Origin: a virus
Lineage: Duplodnaviria > Heunggongvirae > Uroviricota > Caudoviricetes
Reading direction: 5' to 3' (one strand)
Virus record (IMG/VR): IMGVR_UViG_2778261593_000009
Coordinates: 1-29,312 of that record
Length of the DNA stretch: 29,312 nt
Shown here in pieces: positions 19,289 through 24,282 of this stretch. A program made the position numbers and the translations under genes. The notes under the pieces were generated by a model. The model made no database searches, was not told the origin of the DNA, and saw only the letters and a program-made list of their open reading frames with translations. Numbering within the stretch: the first letter of the stretch is position 1; each line of letters opens with the position of its first letter.

Positions 19289-20437
19289 ATGACCTGGCCA
19301 TCTGTCACAATTGAACAGTACAACACGTTCAGTAGCTCGCCGGACGGCGTGGAAAATACGCTGCTGTTTGTGGGCAATGCACAAAACAACAAAGGTAAGG
19401 TTCTGCCGGTTAATGCCAACAGCGATCTGGATGAACTGCTGGGAACAAACGCCAGCCCGCTGAAGAACTTCCTTCGGTCTGCGCTGACCAATGCCGGACA
19501 GAATGCCTTTTTCTATGTTGCCGTTCTGCCGGAAGCCGGCAAAGGCAAAGAAGCGACGCCAGCCTGCCAGGTATGGCAGAACGCCATACTGGCGGCTCAG
19601 GAAACTGTTTCAGTTGAAGGCGTGGTGATCACCGAACCGGTCAGCACGAAGGATGACATCAACGCCATACAGGCGTTACGTCAGACCATCATCAATAAAT
19701 ATCAGCGCCGCATCTGGTTCATTCTGACCATTGCCGCCAATAACGGCAGCAAAACCTGGGCAGATTACGTTGCTGAACTGACCACGCTACAGGAAGGCAT
19801 CGCCGCCCCGCAAATCATGCTGGTTCCGGAAATTTTTGGATTTGAACCGGGCGTTCTTGCCGGCCGTCTGTGTAACAGCGCCGTCACCATTGCTGATAGT
19901 CCGGCGCGTGTGGCAACCGGAGCGCTGTCCGCACTGAAGACCACGGAACGCCCGAAAGACAGCGCAGGGCAGGCAATTGATCTCGACACTCTGCAGGCAC
20001 TGGCAACCGCCCGCTACAGCGTGCCCATGTGGTATGCCGACTATGACGGCCTTTACTGGGCTGACGGTGTAACACTTGAGGTGGAAGGCGGGGACTACAA
20101 CGTCATTGAGCATGTCCGCATTGCTGATAAGGTGGCGCGCCGCGTGCGGCTGATGGCCATCCCCAAGATTGCCGACCGCTCGCTGAACAGCACGCCGGGC
20201 AGCATTGCCGCACATGAAACGCTGTTTGCCCGCCCACTGCGTGCCATGGCGAAATCCATGCAAATTAACGGCATCACGTTTCCGGGCGAAGTGAAATCGC
20301 CCCGGAAAGGCGACGTAGTTATCACCTGGCAGGACGAAAAGACGGTCAGCATCAGCATTGTCGTCCGCCCTTACGCCTGCCCTAAAACCATCAAAGTGGG
20401 CATTCAGCTGGATAAATCTCTGGAGGAAAACGCATGA
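19289..20437 (+). CDS. Tail sheath-like structural protein
   Basis: 382 aa from MTWPSVTIEQ (AGGAG SD); followed by an overlapping about 150-aa gene, as in sheath/tube pairs. Confidence 0.45.
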   Translation: MTWPSVTIEQYNTFSSSPDGVENTLLFVGNAQNNKGKVLPVNANSDLDELLGTNASPLKNFLRSALTNAGQNAFFYVAVLPEAGKGKEATPACQVWQNAILAAQETVSVEGVVITEPVSTKDDINAIQALRQTIINKYQRRIWFILTIAANNGSKTWADYVAELTTLQEGIAAPQIMLVPEIFGFEPGVLAGRLCNSAVTIADSPARVATGALSALKTTERPKDSAGQAIDLDTLQALATARYSVPMWYADYDGLYWADGVTLEVEGGDYNVIEHVRIADKVARRVRLMAIPKIADRSLNSTPGSIAAHETLFARPLRAMAKSMQINGITFPGEVKSPRKGDVVITWQDEKTVSISIVVRPYACPKTIKVGIQLDKSLEENA

Positions 20438-20889
20438 CGACCCGCATTAACGGCATGGCGTTTGACACTTTTATCGGTGGAACGGATATCCATGTGAAAA
20501 GCATCTCACTGGACATCAGCGATGAAAGCGCCGTTGCCAAAACCCGTGGCATCCCTGACGGCAAACTGCGCGGCCCTGTCAGTGCCGAAGGTGAAATCGA
20601 AATGAGTACCCGCAGCTTTAACCAGCTCGGGGAAGTGGCTGCTCAGGCGGGATCGTGGCGTGACCTGCCGCCAATGGATTTTGTGTTTTACGCCAATACG
20701 GGAACCGAAGAAATCCGCGTTGAAGCCTTCGGTTGTGAGCTGATGCTTTCCGGCCTGTTAAGCATTGACACCGAGAGCGCAGATCTGACCACGCACAAAA
20801 TCAAGTACGTGGTGGCAAGCCCTGACTTTGTGCGTATCAACGGCGTGCCCGTTCTCTCAGAGAACGACGTGCGCGGACTGATGGGGTGA
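20434..20889 (+). CDS. Tail tube-like structural protein
   Basis: 151 aa; ATGA overlap with the upstream gene. Confidence 0.4.
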   Translation: MTTRINGMAFDTFIGGTDIHVKSISLDISDESAVAKTRGIPDGKLRGPVSAEGEIEMSTRSFNQLGEVAAQAGSWRDLPPMDFVFYANTGTEEIRVEAFGCELMLSGLLSIDTESADLTTHKIKYVVASPDFVRINGVPVLSENDVRGLMG

Positions 20890-21640: not shown

Positions 21641-21704
21641 TTTTACGCTTAATAAGCCTTCCTGCAGGCTTATTAAGCCCTCTTATTCTTGACTTTAAAA
21701 GGAA

Positions 21705-21998
21705 ATGATGATGAACGATAAAAACACCCAGACTACCGCAGAGAACACCATCACTTTGCAGGTCGGCGAGCATGAACTGACGTTTATCCCGACCGTTAAA
21801 GCCTACAACGATCTGCAGAACGACTTCATGCCGGATAACAAAATCGCGCCGCTGAAAAACTACCTGCGCCGCATCGTGATTAAAGAGCACCGCGATCTGC
21901 TGAACCAGTTGCTGGAAAAACCAGGAATGCCGGCCAGCCTGGCAACAGCCGTGAATAACGAGTTTGTGCCGGAAGTGGAAATCACCGTAAAAAAATAA
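21705..21998 (+). CDS. Tail assembly chaperone (gpE/lambda G-like), short form
   Basis: 97-aa gene directly upstream of the tape measure gene; ends at a slippery A-run. Confidence 0.6.
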   Translation: MMMNDKNTQTTAENTITLQVGEHELTFIPTVKAYNDLQNDFMPDNKIAPLKNYLRRIVIKEHRDLLNQLLEKPGMPASLATAVNNEFVPEVEITVKK

Positions 21999-22186
21999 AA
22001 AGCCATCTGGGGGCCATTGATCGCAATGACCTTACCCGGATGCTGATCCTGCGCCGCCACTGGCTGCCCGGCGAGGATGACTCGCCGCAGTCACTGGCTG
22101 CCGCCGTCTGGCTGGATAACCACTACTGGGAAAATATGAGCATCGCCGTCAATAACGGCATTATCCGTGCTTTTAAGGGATCGTAA
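21705..22186 (+). CDS. Tail assembly chaperone long form, made by a programmed -1 frameshift (gpE+E'/G-T-like)
   Basis: Heptamer A_AAA_AAA at 21989-21995; the -1 frame is open from there to a TAA overlapping the tape measure ATG at 22186 (extension KKIKSHLGAIDR...AFKGS). Confidence 0.55.
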
Positions 22187-24282
22187 TGTCACAACAGCGC
22201 CTTGAATTACTTCTTGAACTGACAGACCGCCTGACAAGGCCGTTGCGTGCAGCCGGGCGACAGGTTCAGGGATTTGCTGCAACAAGTCGGGGAGCCTTTC
22301 GGGACATTGCTACCGGAGGCGCTGCGCTCTGGGGAGTGGGTGCAGCCATTCAGGGGGCACTGATGCCAGCCATTGAAATGGACAGGGCGCTCGGTGAGGT
22401 GAAATCACTGGGCGTCGCAGAGTCCGGATTGCGTAAACTCAGCCGCGCCGCCGTTGATTTCACTATGGAATACGGCGGGGCTGCGCAGGATTTTGTGCGT
22501 GCTTCTTACGACATCCAGTCAGCCATTGCCGGGTTAACTGACGATGAGCTGTCCCGCTTCACCACCGCATCAGCAACGGTGGCAGCAGCAACCAAATCCA
22601 GCAGCCAGACCATTACCGCCTACATGGGCACCATGTACGGCATCTTTAAAGACCAGGCTGATGCCATGGGAAAAAGCAAATGGGTGGAGCAGGTCGCCGG
22701 GCAAACCGCCACCGCCGTGCAAATGTTTAAAACAACCGGCGATAACATGTCAGCAGCGTTCACCACGCTGGGTGCCAGTGCAAAAGCGGCCGGTATTGAT
22801 GCGGCTGAACAGTTCGCCGTGCTGGGACAACTACAGGCCACAATGAGTGGCAGCGAGGCCGGGACAAAATACAAGGCATTTCTTGCCGCAGTAGGCAGCG
22901 CCCAGAAAAAGCTGGGGCTTAATTTCGTGAATAAAGACGGCACGATGAAAAGTGTTGTCGAGATCATGAAACTTATCAGGGGTAAATTTGGTGATCTGTC
23001 AAAAGTGGCTGATTCCGATTTGCTGAAAAGCGCCTTTGGCTCCGATGAAGCTGTGGCCATGATTAAATTACTCAATGCGGACATTGGCGGACTTGAAAAG
23101 AATATCGCCACGCTGGGCAATATCAAAGGTATGGATAAGGCTGTCGAAATGGCGCAGGCCATGGCTGATCCATGGGAACAGGCCGCCGCAATTATTAACG
23201 GCATTCGCATCGAAATCGGCACGCAGTTGCTGCCTGTTCTGTACCCGTTTATCCAGAAAAGCAACGAAGGCGGTAAATCCTTTGTTGCCTGGTTACGTCT
23301 GTATCCCAATATCACACGGGCTATTGGTTTACTGTCTGCCGCCCTGCTGGGCATTGCCGCAGTGGGTGCCGTTGTCAACATTATGGTGGGTGTGGCGAAG
23401 TTTGTCTGGACAGGACTGCGGCTGGTCTGGCTGGCAGCAGTTGCACCCCTGAAGATTCTCATTCTGCTGAAACGCACACTGACGGCTACCATGTGGGCGT
23501 TCACTGTAGTTGCCCGAACGGTCAGGGCGCTGTATCTGGCCATGTCCATTGCTATGGGAACATACAACGTCAAAGCAAAAATTCAGCTGGCGCTGCTGAA
23601 ATTACAGCGCGCCGGACTCTGGCTTTATTCTGTTGCGCTGGGTGCCGCCGGCATAGCAATGAAAATCTACACCGCAGTCACCAGCGGAGCTGCAATTGCA
23701 ACACAGTTACTTTTCAGCCCCATCACATTAATCATCCTGGCACTGGCTGCGCTGGGCGTGGGCATTTATTTCCTGATCACCCGCTGGGATGAGATTAAAG
23801 CCGCGCTGATGGATACCGCCGCCTTTCAGTGGGTGGCTGAAATGGTCGGCAGTATGGGGGCATGGTTCGGCAATGCATGGAACACAATCCAGGACGGCTG
23901 GAATGCACTGGTTAACTATTTTTCCACGCATTCACCTCTGGACGCCCTGAAGGATATCGCCGGCGGCATCCTGAACATTTTCAGTAACCTCTGGGAACTG
24001 GTGAAACAGTCCTTCAGTGATTCATGGGGCTGGATTGTAGGCAAGCTCAACATGATCCCCGGCGTCAATATCGACACACCGGAAAGCACAGGAAGTGGCG
24101 AAGGCTCCGTATTAACCGGCGGCAAAGCCATCAGTGCGGGACCGGGCGGCATTGCGGCAGAGATGCAGAACAACAGCGAAAACCAGACCACCATCGACAA
24201 CTCCCGTCGTGTGGTTAACGTCAATGTGCAGGATCCATCCCCTGCCCGTCTTAACGAGTGGATGGAGCTGCATGCATACTGA
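22186..24282 (+). CDS. Tail tape measure protein
   Basis: 698 aa; helical N-terminal part and a long hydrophobic, Ala/Gly/Leu-rich central region typical of tape measure proteins. Confidence 0.8.
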   Translation: MSQQRLELLLELTDRLTRPLRAAGRQVQGFAATSRGAFRDIATGGAALWGVGAAIQGALMPAIEMDRALGEVKSLGVAESGLRKLSRAAVDFTMEYGGAAQDFVRASYDIQSAIAGLTDDELSRFTTASATVAAATKSSSQTITAYMGTMYGIFKDQADAMGKSKWVEQVAGQTATAVQMFKTTGDNMSAAFTTLGASAKAAGIDAAEQFAVLGQLQATMSGSEAGTKYKAFLAAVGSAQKKLGLNFVNKDGTMKSVVEIMKLIRGKFGDLSKVADSDLLKSAFGSDEAVAMIKLLNADIGGLEKNIATLGNIKGMDKAVEMAQAMADPWEQAAAIINGIRIEIGTQLLPVLYPFIQKSNEGGKSFVAWLRLYPNITRAIGLLSAALLGIAAVGAVVNIMVGVAKFVWTGLRLVWLAAVAPLKILILLKRTLTATMWAFTVVARTVRALYLAMSIAMGTYNVKAKIQLALLKLQRAGLWLYSVALGAAGIAMKIYTAVTSGAAIATQLLFSPITLIILALAALGVGIYFLITRWDEIKAALMDTAAFQWVAEMVGSMGAWFGNAWNTIQDGWNALVNYFSTHSPLDALKDIAGGILNIFSNLWELVKQSFSDSWGWIVGKLNMIPGVNIDTPESTGSGEGSVLTGGKAISAGPGGIAAEMQNNSENQTTIDNSRRVVNVNVQDPSPARLNEWMELHAY

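What the first reader, a model, noticed from the sequence alone, without database searches (positions are those of the whole stretch)
21989..22186. Programmed -1 ribosomal frameshift in the tail assembly chaperone gene
The chaperone ORF ends just after the heptamer A_AAA_AAA (21989-21995). The -1 frame is open from there for about 63 codons and stops at a TAA overlapping the tape measure ATG. This matches the conserved G/GT (lambda) and E/E+E' (P2) arrangement, here with a very clean slippery site.
Basis: partly seen in the sequence, partly recalled or inferred. Interest (0 to 1): 0.45.

Follow-up and report, generated by a model that had tools for sequence, protein, structure and literature searches.

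The report
Tail chaperone -1 frameshift, HP1-type prophage
An HP1-like prophage makes two versions of its tail assembly chaperone by letting a fraction of ribosomes slip back one base on a run of seven A's; this trick is well known in tailed phages, but databases miss it in this family and file the slipped-frame part as a separate protein of unknown function (DUF6890).

Summary
The chaperone ORF (21705/21711-21998, Pfam Phage_TAC_10) ends gtA_AAA_AAA_TAA. The -1 frame is open from the heptamer for 63 further codons. Its TAA (22184-22186) overlaps the tape measure ATG (22186).

- In 210 of 213 distinct related sequences, and in 9 of 9 more distant ones, the extension lies in the -1 frame with a canonical slippery heptamer in register. 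The heptamers are A_AAA_AAC, A_AAA_AAG or A_AAA_AAA, and once G_GGA_AAG. The overlap can be as short as 13 nt.
- Synonymous sites of the heptamer are frozen.
- The coding phase switches exactly at the heptamer.
- 38 of 136 distinct extensions contain no Met, and the window's ATG 22040 has no Shine-Dalgarno sequence.

The extension is Pfam DUF6890, which NCBI's annotation pipeline calls as a stand-alone gene. It is better read as the frameshift extension, the counterpart of lambda T and P2 E'. It shows no detectable sequence similarity to P2 E+E'.

No conserved stimulatory RNA structure was found. A_AAA_AAC and A_AAA_AAA heptamers are always followed directly by the zero-frame stop, which hints at a "shifty stop". 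No protein data exist.

Verdict: an ordinary new member of a known kind, of low interest, with some value for annotation.

The parts
21705..21998 (+). Tail assembly chaperone gene in the zero frame (97 aa from ATG 21705). The likely true start is the third ATG at 21711 (95 aa), which is the one PGAP uses.
   Evidence: Pfam Phage_TAC_10 E=1.6e-26, 92.7 bits against a 25.7 cutoff. phrog_1214. PGAP annotation in E. coli A36. Shine-Dalgarno (SD) sequence AAGGA, duplex dG -5.6 for ATG 21708 and 21711 against +0.3 for 21705.
21989..21995 (+). Slippery heptamer A_AAA_AAA in X_XXY_YYZ register. This is the site of the -1 slip of tRNA-Lys.
   Evidence: A_AAA_AAN is in register in 210 of 213 distinct relatives. 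In loci with more than 55% G+C, all 127 use AAA for the first Lys and all 119 preceding Val codons are GTA, against backgrounds of 28% and 6%.
21996..21998 (+). Zero-frame stop TAA directly abutting the heptamer. It ends the short product and is a possible 'shifty stop' stimulator.
   Evidence: All 139 A_AAA_AAC and A_AAA_AAA relatives have a stop (TAA 56, TGA 53, TAG 30) right after the heptamer. A_AAA_AAG relatives have it 0-12 codons later.
21995..22186 (+). The -1 frame extension: 63 codons plus TAA. It corresponds to Pfam DUF6890 and is the counterpart of lambda T and P2 E'.
   Evidence: Pfam DUF6890 E=4.8e-23 and phrog_7050 E=8e-29. It is conserved from the first residue after the slip. 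Third-position variability is in -1 phase, including the first 42 nt. The AlphaFold model has pLDDT 94 with helices at residues 2-10, 12-23 and 31-61.
22040..22186 (+). ORF called by PGAP as a stand-alone 48-aa 'DUF6890 family protein'. I judge this a gene-calling artefact: it is the C-terminal three quarters of the extension.
   Evidence: Annotation. No SD sequence (dG +0.7). The ATG is not conserved: 38 of 136 distinct extensions have no Met and 72 of 136 have none in the first 30 residues. Database homologues have ragged N-termini and lengths of 28-67 aa.
22001..22044 (+). Predicted bulged hairpin starting 5 nt 3' of the heptamer. It is a possible local stimulator, but the evidence is weak.
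   Evidence: The 100-nt fold has z=-2.9. The 60-nt segment has dG -19.5, which is only the 18th percentile of the locus background. RNAalifold finds no structure shared across the family. Variants in close relatives are not compensatory.
21971..21979 (+). SD-like GGAAGTGGA, 9-18 nt upstream of the heptamer. It is a possible dnaX-type upstream stimulator and is specific to this lineage.
   Evidence: Anti-SD duplex dG -7.4, 5th percentile of the locus background. The feature is not conserved in the family (median percentile 0.42).
22186..24282 (+). Tail tape measure protein gene. Its ATG overlaps the extension's TAA, and the tape measure protein is the presumed binding partner of the chaperone.
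   Evidence: Pfam PhageMin_Tail E=7.5e-29. phrog_28. TIGR01760 E=1.4e-20. SD sequence AAGGGA, dG -5.2.
20434..20889 (+). Tail tube gene (HP1 Orf24 family). By analogy with lambda, the tube protein is the presumed partner of the extension. This part is context only.
   Evidence: Pfam Phage_HP1_Orf24 E=1.1e-50 and phrog_1182 'tail protein'.

Best explanation
The window is an HP1-like (Peduoviridae) prophage of Escherichia albertii/E. coli. Most ribosomes translating the tail assembly chaperone gene terminate at TAA 21996-98 and make a protein of about 95 aa. A minority slip one base backwards on A_AAA_AAA (21989-95). There the tRNA-Lys re-pairs perfectly, either as a tandem P/A-site slip or as a P-site slip while the stop codon waits in the A site.

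The slipped ribosomes read on in the -1 frame (…EITVKK|IKSHLGAIDR…) for 63 codons, up to the TAA that overlaps the tape measure start. The result is a fusion of about 158-160 aa whose C-terminal helical hairpin is what Pfam calls DUF6890.

By analogy with lambda G/GT and P2 E/E+E', the shared N-terminal domain coats the tape measure protein. The rare extension recruits the tube protein to start tail polymerisation, and neither product ends up in the virion.

Shown here: the sequence anatomy, the coding status of both frames, and the conservation of the frame relation and of slipperiness. Inferred: that slippage occurs, its rate, and the roles of the two domains.
For: Anatomy:
- Searches give the sequence layout.
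- Pfam identifies Phage_TAC_10 in the zero frame and DUF6890 in the -1 frame.
- Gene order is sheath, tube, holin, M15 endolysin, chaperone, tape measure, as in HP1.

Conservation of the arrangement:
- All 18 named phages from more than 12 genera, at 34-55% identity, have the extension in -1 with A_AAA_AAN in register.
- In bulk, 210 of 213 distinct sequences do so, and the overlap is as short as 13 nt.
- The three exceptions are 1-nt length changes exactly at the A run. Two of them create in-frame fusions with the predicted junction.
- Nine more distant relatives found through DUF6890 all keep a Phage_TAC_10 gene upstream, the -1 frame and a canonical heptamer. One of them uses G_GGA_AAG, so slipperiness is kept while the peptide changes.

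Selection at the nucleotide level:
- Synonymous sites of the heptamer are frozen against codon bias.
- Codon-phase entropy switches from the zero frame to the -1 frame at the heptamer.

No independent start for the extension:
- ATG 22040 has no SD sequence, the ATG is not conserved, and many extensions have no Met.
- The extension folds as one unit that includes the residues upstream of that ATG.

Background from the literature:
- Lambda G/GT and its 30:1 ratio, and the wide conservation of this frameshift (PMC5009743).
- P2 E/E+E' (PMC3091744; record annotation).
Against: - No protein, ribosome-profiling or reporter data exist for this family in anything I could search.
- A_AAA_AAA shifts at only 0.4% in E. 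coli reporters without a stimulator. The commonest heptamer of the family, A_AAA_AAC, reaches only 0.16-0.74% (PMC4066793 Table S3).
- I found no conserved RNA stimulator. The window's hairpin and SD-like element are unremarkable or lineage-specific.
- The functions of the two domains rest on analogy. There is no sequence or fold link to lambda or P2 chaperones, and the chaperone model was unusable (pLDDT 50).
Confidence: 0.9

Rival explanations
1. Transcriptional slippage: RNA polymerase adds one extra A on the A7 run. Ordinary translation of the edited mRNA then gives the identical fusion (…VKK IKS…).
For: Inserting one A would give exactly the same protein (reading of the sequence). AAAAAAA is under-represented in all three phasings in E. 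coli, possibly because of transcript indels (PMC4066793). L123 carries a genomic A7 in place of A6, which produces the fused frame and shows the run is prone to length change.
Against: 185 of 210 relatives have only six A's followed by C or G, and one has G_GGA_AAG. From my own knowledge, productive slippage in bacteria usually needs runs of about 9 or more, so six is too short. The conserved feature is a heptamer in ribosomal register, not run length. Slippage may add a small share in this particular A7 variant.
Confidence: 0.05
2. Two separate genes, as PGAP annotates: the chaperone, and a free-standing 48-aa DUF6890 protein initiated at ATG 22040, with no recoding.
For: RefSeq annotation in 42 E. 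coli genomes. Several phage records list a small separate ORF. All 43 database representatives are short stand-alone calls.
Against: ATG 22040 has no SD sequence (dG +0.7). The ATG is not conserved and 38 of 136 extensions lack any Met. The 15 codons upstream of it are conserved as protein in the -1 phase and form part of helix 1 in a model with pLDDT 94. The called N-termini are ragged.
Confidence: 0.03
3. A broken gene or sequencing artefact: the true gene is one 160-aa ORF, and the window carries a 1-nt indel in a homopolymer.
For: Homopolymers are prone to indels. Two relatives (L122, L123) do have the two parts in one frame.
Against: The two-frame arrangement is found in 210 of 213 distinct sequences, including independently sequenced reference phages (HP1, HP2, K139, phiO18P, F108, ESSI-2) and 42 complete E. 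coli genomes. The zero-frame stop sits directly after the heptamer, and its identity varies (TAA, TGA, TAG) while its position stays fixed.
Confidence: 0.02

Closest known systems
Phage P2 E / E+E' (the -1 frameshift in the FETUD tail operon)
   Same: Same virus family (Peduoviridae) and a contractile tail. The gene pair lies between the tube gene and the tape measure gene. The product sizes are alike: 91 and 142 aa in P2, 95-97 and 158-160 aa here. In both, the extension ends at or just inside the tape measure start (P2 E' ends 8 nt into T; here TAATG). Neither has a conserved downstream hairpin (PMC3091744).
   Different: The P2 heptamer is T_TTT_TTG, with the zero-frame stop 6 codons later. 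The Pfam families differ: Phage_TAC_7 plus Phage_P2_GpE in P2, Phage_TAC_10 plus DUF6890 here. hhalign gives probability 0.2% and hmmsearch finds nothing. Here holin and endolysin genes sit between the tube gene and the chaperone gene. The P2 frameshift is shown by experiment; this one is not.
Phage lambda G / GT
   Same: [quoted passage not shown] Two products share an N-terminus, and the long product is the minor one (PMC5009743). One distant relative of the window (L338) even uses lambda's heptamer G_GGA_AAG (the lambda heptamer is from my own knowledge).
   Different: Lambda is a siphovirus with no sequence similarity to this system. The 30:1 ratio and the binding partners (tape measure protein gpH for G, tube protein gpV for T) were measured for lambda only.
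HP1 orf26, K139 orf30, phiO18P gp36/gp37, F108 orf31/32, ESSI-2 (direct homologues)
   Same: The same two Pfam families, the same -1 relation, an A_AAA_AAC or A_AAA_AAA heptamer followed directly by a stop, and extensions of 60-64 codons ending at the tape measure gene.
   Different: Protein identity is 34-55%, and most use A_AAA_AAC rather than A_AAA_AAA. None of these GenBank or RefSeq records annotates a frameshift. Xu, Hendrix and Duda (2004, Mol Cell) may already list HP1, but I could not read that paper.
IS1 insAB' (A_AAA_AAC) and dnaX (A_AAA_AAG) bacterial -1 frameshifts
   Same: The same lysine-run type of heptamer, decoded by the single E. coli tRNA-Lys. IS1 works without a known stimulator (PMC4066793).
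   Different: The biology differs (transposase and polymerase subunit). dnaX depends on an upstream SD sequence and a downstream hairpin, neither of which is conserved here.

Membership tests
G/GT-type tail assembly chaperone frameshift (class of Xu, Hendrix and Duda 2004) | Two overlapping ORFs located between the major tail (tube) gene and the tape measure gene | tested here: met
   Tube 20434-20889, chaperone 21705-21998, extension to 22186, tape measure from 22186. Holin and endolysin genes are interposed, as in HP1.
G/GT-type tail assembly chaperone frameshift (class of Xu, Hendrix and Duda 2004) | The second ORF is in the -1 frame and lacks its own translation start signals | tested here: met
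   The frame difference is -1. ATG 22040 has no SD sequence. 38 of 136 homologous extensions have no Met.
G/GT-type tail assembly chaperone frameshift (class of Xu, Hendrix and Duda 2004) | A canonical X_XXY_YYZ slippery heptamer in register within the overlap | tested here: met
   A_AAA_AAA at 21989-95 is the only such heptamer in the 40-nt overlap.
G/GT-type tail assembly chaperone frameshift (class of Xu, Hendrix and Duda 2004) | The arrangement and the slipperiness are conserved in relatives despite sequence divergence | tested here: met
   210 of 213 distinct sequences plus 9 of 9 distant ones. Heptamers are AAC 114, AAG 71 plus 7, AAA 25 plus 1, and G_GGA_AAG 1. Synonymous sites are constrained.
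G/GT-type tail assembly chaperone frameshift (class of Xu, Hendrix and Duda 2004) | A fusion protein is actually made at a low, fixed ratio; both products are needed for tail assembly and are absent from virions | not testable with these tools
   This needs a western blot or mass spectrometry, a reporter assay and genetics. No such data were found in the literature searched.
P2 gpE / gpE+E' protein family (Pfam Phage_TAC_7 + Phage_P2_GpE) | Sequence homology to P2 E and E' | tested here: not met
   P2 E+E' hits PF10109 and PF06528, whereas the window's fusion hits PF10963 and PF21830. hhalign gives probability 0.2%. hmmsearch with filters off scores -1.2 bits.
P2 gpE / gpE+E' protein family (Pfam Phage_TAC_7 + Phage_P2_GpE) | T_TTT_TTG slippery site | tested here: not met
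   The heptamer here is A_AAA_AAA. P2 has GGT TTT TTG.
Pfam Phage_TAC_10 (PF10963) | Score above the gathering threshold over the full model | tested here: met
   92.7 bits against 25.7, covering model positions 1-82 of 82.
Pfam DUF6890 (PF21830) | Score above the gathering threshold over the full model | tested here: met
   81.1 bits against 23.6, covering model positions 1-44 of 44, in the -1 frame translation. The Pfam model covers only the part downstream of the usual false start.
dnaX-type stimulated -1 frameshift | An upstream SD-like element and a downstream stem-loop at fixed spacing, both conserved | tested here: inconclusive
   The window has an SD-like element (dG -7.4, 5th percentile) and a hairpin 5 nt downstream (18th percentile). 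Neither is conserved across the family.
Programmed transcriptional slippage | A long homopolymer (usually about 9 or more A/T; from my own knowledge) conserved as a run | tested here: not met
   The run is 7 A here and only 6 A in 185 of 210 relatives. One relative has no run at all (G_GGA_AAG).

The most novel reading that the evidence does not exclude
In this family the zero-frame stop codon directly 3' of the heptamer may be a selected part of the recoding signal, a 'shifty stop'. The P-site tRNA would slip while the slowly decoded stop waits in the A site. This would compensate for intrinsically weak heptamers and replace an RNA structure.

The evidence is a correlation. All 140 distinct A_AAA_AAC and A_AAA_AAA sites have a stop directly after the heptamer, with its position fixed while its identity varies among TAA, TGA and TAG. 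Sites with the intrinsically strong A_AAA_AAG have the stop 0-12 codons later, adjacent in only 1 of 8 lineages. In reporters, AAC and AAA shift at only 0.16-0.4% without a stimulator. The correlation is confounded by shared ancestry and is untested.

A corollary is that Pfam DUF6890 is not a protein family in its own right. It would be the tube-recruiting extension domain of Phage_TAC_10 chaperones.
Probability: 0.35. Interest if true: 0.35.

Novelty: new member of a known kind. Interest (0 to 1): 0.2.

Why it matters
The main value is for annotation.
- The 48-aa "DUF6890 family protein" that PGAP calls in E. coli, E. albertii and many other genomes, and the unannotated ~190-nt gap in HP1, HP2, K139, ESSI-2 and other reference phages, should become a ribosomal-slippage join giving a chaperone fusion of about 150-160 aa.
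- That would give a function to one Pfam DUF and one PHROG of unknown function.
- It would also correct the gene count of HP1-type Peduoviridae.

Biologically it adds another sequence-unrelated lineage that keeps the two-product chaperone design. It also offers a natural series of heptamers (AAC, AAA, AAG, and G_GGA_AAG), with or without an adjacent stop, for testing how weak slippery sites reach a useful frameshift rate. A phage specialist would not be surprised by any of this.

Tried and rejected
- Locus search with the 18-sequence fusion alignment failed because no conserved 7-10 column block exists. I replaced it with five single-protein scans.
- The genome-contig scan returned only the source organism, E. 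albertii NBRC 107761.
- Near-identity DNA search of phage records found nothing close.
- Word-indexed protein searches reached only close relatives and found no annotated fusions, apart from one deletion variant, P0005.
- RNAalifold on 30 diverse sequences found no consensus structure. Variants in the close subgroup were not compensatory. Rfam had no hit.
- An upstream SD-like stimulator is present in the window but not in the family.
- Homology to P2 E+E' was rejected. The P2-side locus scan gave only 99-100% identical copies, so no better E' profile could be built.
The chaperone domain model was unusable (pLDDT 50), so no fold search was run on it. A fold search of the confident extension model against viral structures gave only E>2 matches, as expected for a helical hairpin.
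- NCBIfam has no model for either part.
- The literature library holds nothing on DUF6890 or on an HP1-type frameshift, and neither Xu 2004 nor Christie 2002 could be read.

Full report
**1. The observation**

The sequence is exactly as described.
- ORF 21705-21998 ends GTA AAA AAA TAA.
- The seven A's occupy 21989-21995, in X_XXY_YYZ register.
- The -1 frame opens at 21959 and closes at TAA 22184-22186. The last base of that TAA is the A of the ATG of the 698-aa ORF 22186-24282.
- A -1 slip on the heptamer adds 63 codons (…EITVKK|IKSHLGAIDRNDLTRMLILRRHWLPGEDD…KGS), giving 160 aa.

The chaperone ORF begins with ATGATGATG. NCBI's annotation pipeline (PGAP) uses the third ATG (21711), and the Shine-Dalgarno (SD) sequence AAGGA is spaced for the second or third ATG. 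The products are therefore more likely 95 and 158 aa.

A run of seven A's is not remarkable in itself, because the window has 12 A/T runs of 7 or more bases. What lifts this above chance is that the -1 translation is a recognised protein family: Pfam DUF6890 at E=4.8e-23 and phrog_7050 at E=8e-29.

**2. Context**

The neighbouring genes are:
- tail sheath (DUF2586, phrog_907)
- tail tube (Phage_HP1_Orf24)
- holin
- M15 endolysin
- the chaperone (Pfam Phage_TAC_10, E=1.6e-26)
- tape measure (PhageMin_Tail, TIGR01760)
- DUF2590, baseplate J, a P2 I-like protein and a tail fibre

This is the Haemophilus phage HP1 layout. The window is 100% identical over the chaperone to Escherichia albertii NBRC 107761. 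The same prophage region occurs in 42 of 5,426 complete E. coli genomes. There PGAP annotates a "putative phage tail assembly chaperone", a separate 48-aa "DUF6890 family protein" starting at the equivalent of ATG 22040, and the tape measure gene. No ribosomal slippage is annotated.

**3. Comparative test**

tblastn of the predicted fusion against 50,697 phage records found 76 records. In every row listed, the match fell into two pieces.

I read 18 of them: HP1, K139, phiO18P, P05B, ESSI-2, ev015, SI7, vB_YenM_324, F108, phi3, UFJF_PfPro, PV94, ValB1MD-2, yong1, 1.202.O, PY3 and SMHB1, plus the E. coli copy. They are 34-55% identical to the window. In all of them the second piece is in the -1 frame and gtA/ctA_AAA_AAN lies in register inside the overlap. 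In three of them the overlap is only 13 nt (GAA GTA AAA AAC TAA), which pins the shift to the heptamer. None of these records annotates a frameshift. The extension is either left as an unannotated gap of about 190 nt or called as a small hypothetical ORF.

Five scans of IMG/VR raised the set to 252 complete loci and 213 distinct sequences.
- 210 of the 213 have the -1 arrangement. The heptamers are A_AAA_AAC (114), A_AAA_AAG (71) and A_AAA_AAA (25).
- The three exceptions are single-base length changes exactly at the A run. L122 and L123 carry one extra base and so are natural in-frame fusions with the predicted junction (VKN-ALGHAE, VKK-VLEHAD). L247 has A5.

Approaching from the other side, phmmer of the 63-aa extension against 1.84 billion representatives gave 43 hits. 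All are orphan ORFs of 28-67 aa with ragged N-termini. I fetched the genomic context of nine of the more distant ones. All nine have a Phage_TAC_10 gene immediately upstream, the extension in -1, and a canonical heptamer in register. Seven use A_AAA_AAG, one uses A_AAA_AAA, and one (L338) uses G_GGA_AAG. In L338 the peptide at the site changes from VKK to VGK while slipperiness is kept.

**4. Selection acts on the nucleotides and on the -1 frame**

- In the 127 distinct loci with more than 55% G+C, the first Lys codon of the heptamer is AAA in all 127, against a background of 28% AAA among Lys codons. The preceding Val codon is GTA in all 119 cases, against a background of 6%.
- Column entropy by codon position is highest at zero-frame third positions upstream of the heptamer (1.61 against 1.05 and 0.80). 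Downstream it is highest at -1-frame third positions (1.68 against 1.08 and 1.00). This holds within the first 42 nt, upstream of the window's ATG 22040.
- The extension aligns without gaps from its first residue (AIExNxLEQ…LRRHxLP…WL).
- 38 of 136 distinct extensions contain no Met at all, and 72 have none in the first 30 residues.
- ATG 22040 has no SD sequence: duplex dG is +0.7, against -5.6 and -5.2 for the chaperone and tape measure starts.
- An AlphaFold model of the extension is confident (pLDDT 94). It is a helical hairpin with helices at residues 2-10, 12-23 and 31-61. Residues encoded upstream of ATG 22040 are part of the fold.

Together these rule out the stand-alone DUF6890 gene as the general reading.

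**5. Mechanism**

The conserved element is a ribosomal slippery heptamer, not a long homopolymer. Most relatives have only six A's and one has none, so ribosomal -1 frameshifting is the family mechanism. Transcriptional slippage could contribute a little in this A7 variant and would give the same protein.

I found no conserved stimulator.
- The window has a bulged hairpin (22001-22044) starting 5 nt after the heptamer. Its energy is only at the 18th percentile of the locus background.
- Across 30 representatives, the downstream 60 nt is on average somewhat more stable than the locus background (mean z -1.3). RNAalifold nevertheless finds no shared structure, and variants in close relatives are not compensatory.
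- An SD-like GGAAGTGGA lies 9-18 nt upstream in the window but is not conserved in the family.

One regularity did emerge. Every A_AAA_AAC or A_AAA_AAA site (140 of 140 distinct sequences) is followed directly by the zero-frame stop. The stop's identity varies (TAA 56, TGA 53, TAG 30) while its position is fixed. A_AAA_AAG sites have the stop 0-12 codons later.

In E. coli reporters, -1 frameshifting without a stimulator, with the IS911 stimulator and with the IS3 pseudoknot was:

| Heptamer | No stimulator | IS911 | IS3 pseudoknot |
|---|---|---|---|
| A_AAA_AAA | 0.405% | 0.819% | 24.8% |
| A_AAA_AAC | 0.163% | 0.189% | 0.739% |
| A_AAA_AAG | 0.291% | 4.26% | 39.0% |

(PMC4066793 Table S3.)

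A stop-assisted P-site slip is therefore an attractive explanation of how the weak heptamers reach a useful rate. The correlation is confounded by phylogeny and untested, so I rate it about 0.35.

**6. Comparison with known systems**

The design matches lambda G/GT. There -1 shifting near the end of the chaperone gene gives a 30:1 ratio; G binds the tape measure protein and T binds the tube protein (PMC5009743). It also matches P2 E/E+E': 91 and 142 aa, T_TTT_TTG, a slippage join annotated in NC_001895, and E' ending 8 nt inside T (PMC3091744).

It is not a sequence homologue of P2 E/E'.
- P2 E+E' belongs to Phage_TAC_7 plus Phage_P2_GpE.
- hhalign of the 18-member fusion alignment against P2 E+E' gives probability 0.2%.
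- An HMM built from 136 extensions does not score P2 E'.
- A fold search of the extension model against viral structures found nothing.

So it works like G/GT and E/E+E', and it belongs to a different protein family, Phage_TAC_10 plus DUF6890. The direct homologues are HP1 orf26 and its counterparts.

**7. Novelty and verdict**

The frameshift class has been known since 1993-2004 and is expected in any long-tailed phage. For this protein family I found no record or paper in the searchable library that annotates or mentions it. I could not read Xu et al. 2004, which may already list HP1.

The practical result is an annotation correction: DUF6890 and phrog_7050 are the frameshift extension of Phage_TAC_10 chaperones.

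Interest is low (0.2). Novelty: new member of a known kind.

Noticed in passing
window 21647-21678: A 13-bp inverted repeat (GCTTAATAAGCC…GGCTTATTAAGC) sits in the 64-nt gap between the endolysin gene and the chaperone gene. It is followed by a weak T-rich tail (CCTCTTATTC) and looks like a terminator or attenuator. It could set the relative expression of the lysis genes and the downstream tail genes.
   Followed up: no
window 21641-21704 (compare L002 692-1181, L003 616-963, L009 707-1205): The window has no Rz/Rz1 spanin genes between the endolysin and the chaperone. Relatives such as vB_YenM_324, HP1, ev015, SI7 and phiO18P carry them exactly there. I did not check whether spanins lie elsewhere in the prophage.
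   Followed up: no
P0005 (Salmonella enterica serovar Montevideo, 96 aa): This database protein joins the first ~54 residues of the chaperone (…NYLRR) in frame to the DUF6890 part (HWLPGEDD…). It appears to be a deletion between the two short LRR-coding repeats (window about 21868-21875 and 22052-22060). It is probably a defective prophage.
   Followed up: partly
L122 1458-1464, L123 1452-1458, L247 1440-1444: These are the only three exceptions to the -1 arrangement, and all are 1-nt length changes at the slippery run. Two are +1 nt, giving genomic in-frame fusions; one is A5. They may be real slippage mutations or homopolymer sequencing errors.
   Followed up: partly
L012 (Vibrio phage K139) 916-1494: The annotated orf30 (192 aa) starts with a lipoprotein-signal-like sequence (…LMLLLSGC), like an o-spanin, and runs in the same frame into the chaperone with no stop between them. 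This is either a mis-set start or a real read-through arrangement.
   Followed up: no
L338 292-298: A distant metagenomic relative has replaced the lysine-run heptamer with G_GGA_AAG, again directly followed by a stop (TAG). From my own knowledge this is the slippery sequence of lambda G/GT.
   Followed up: partly
L345 1446-2541: In this distant relative the chaperone/DUF6890 pair is followed by two small ORFs and a Laminin_G_3 protein. No recognisable tape measure gene lies within the stretch held.
   Followed up: no
window 21705-21713: The chaperone ORF starts with three consecutive ATG codons. The SD spacing favours the second or third, and PGAP uses the third.
   Followed up: partly
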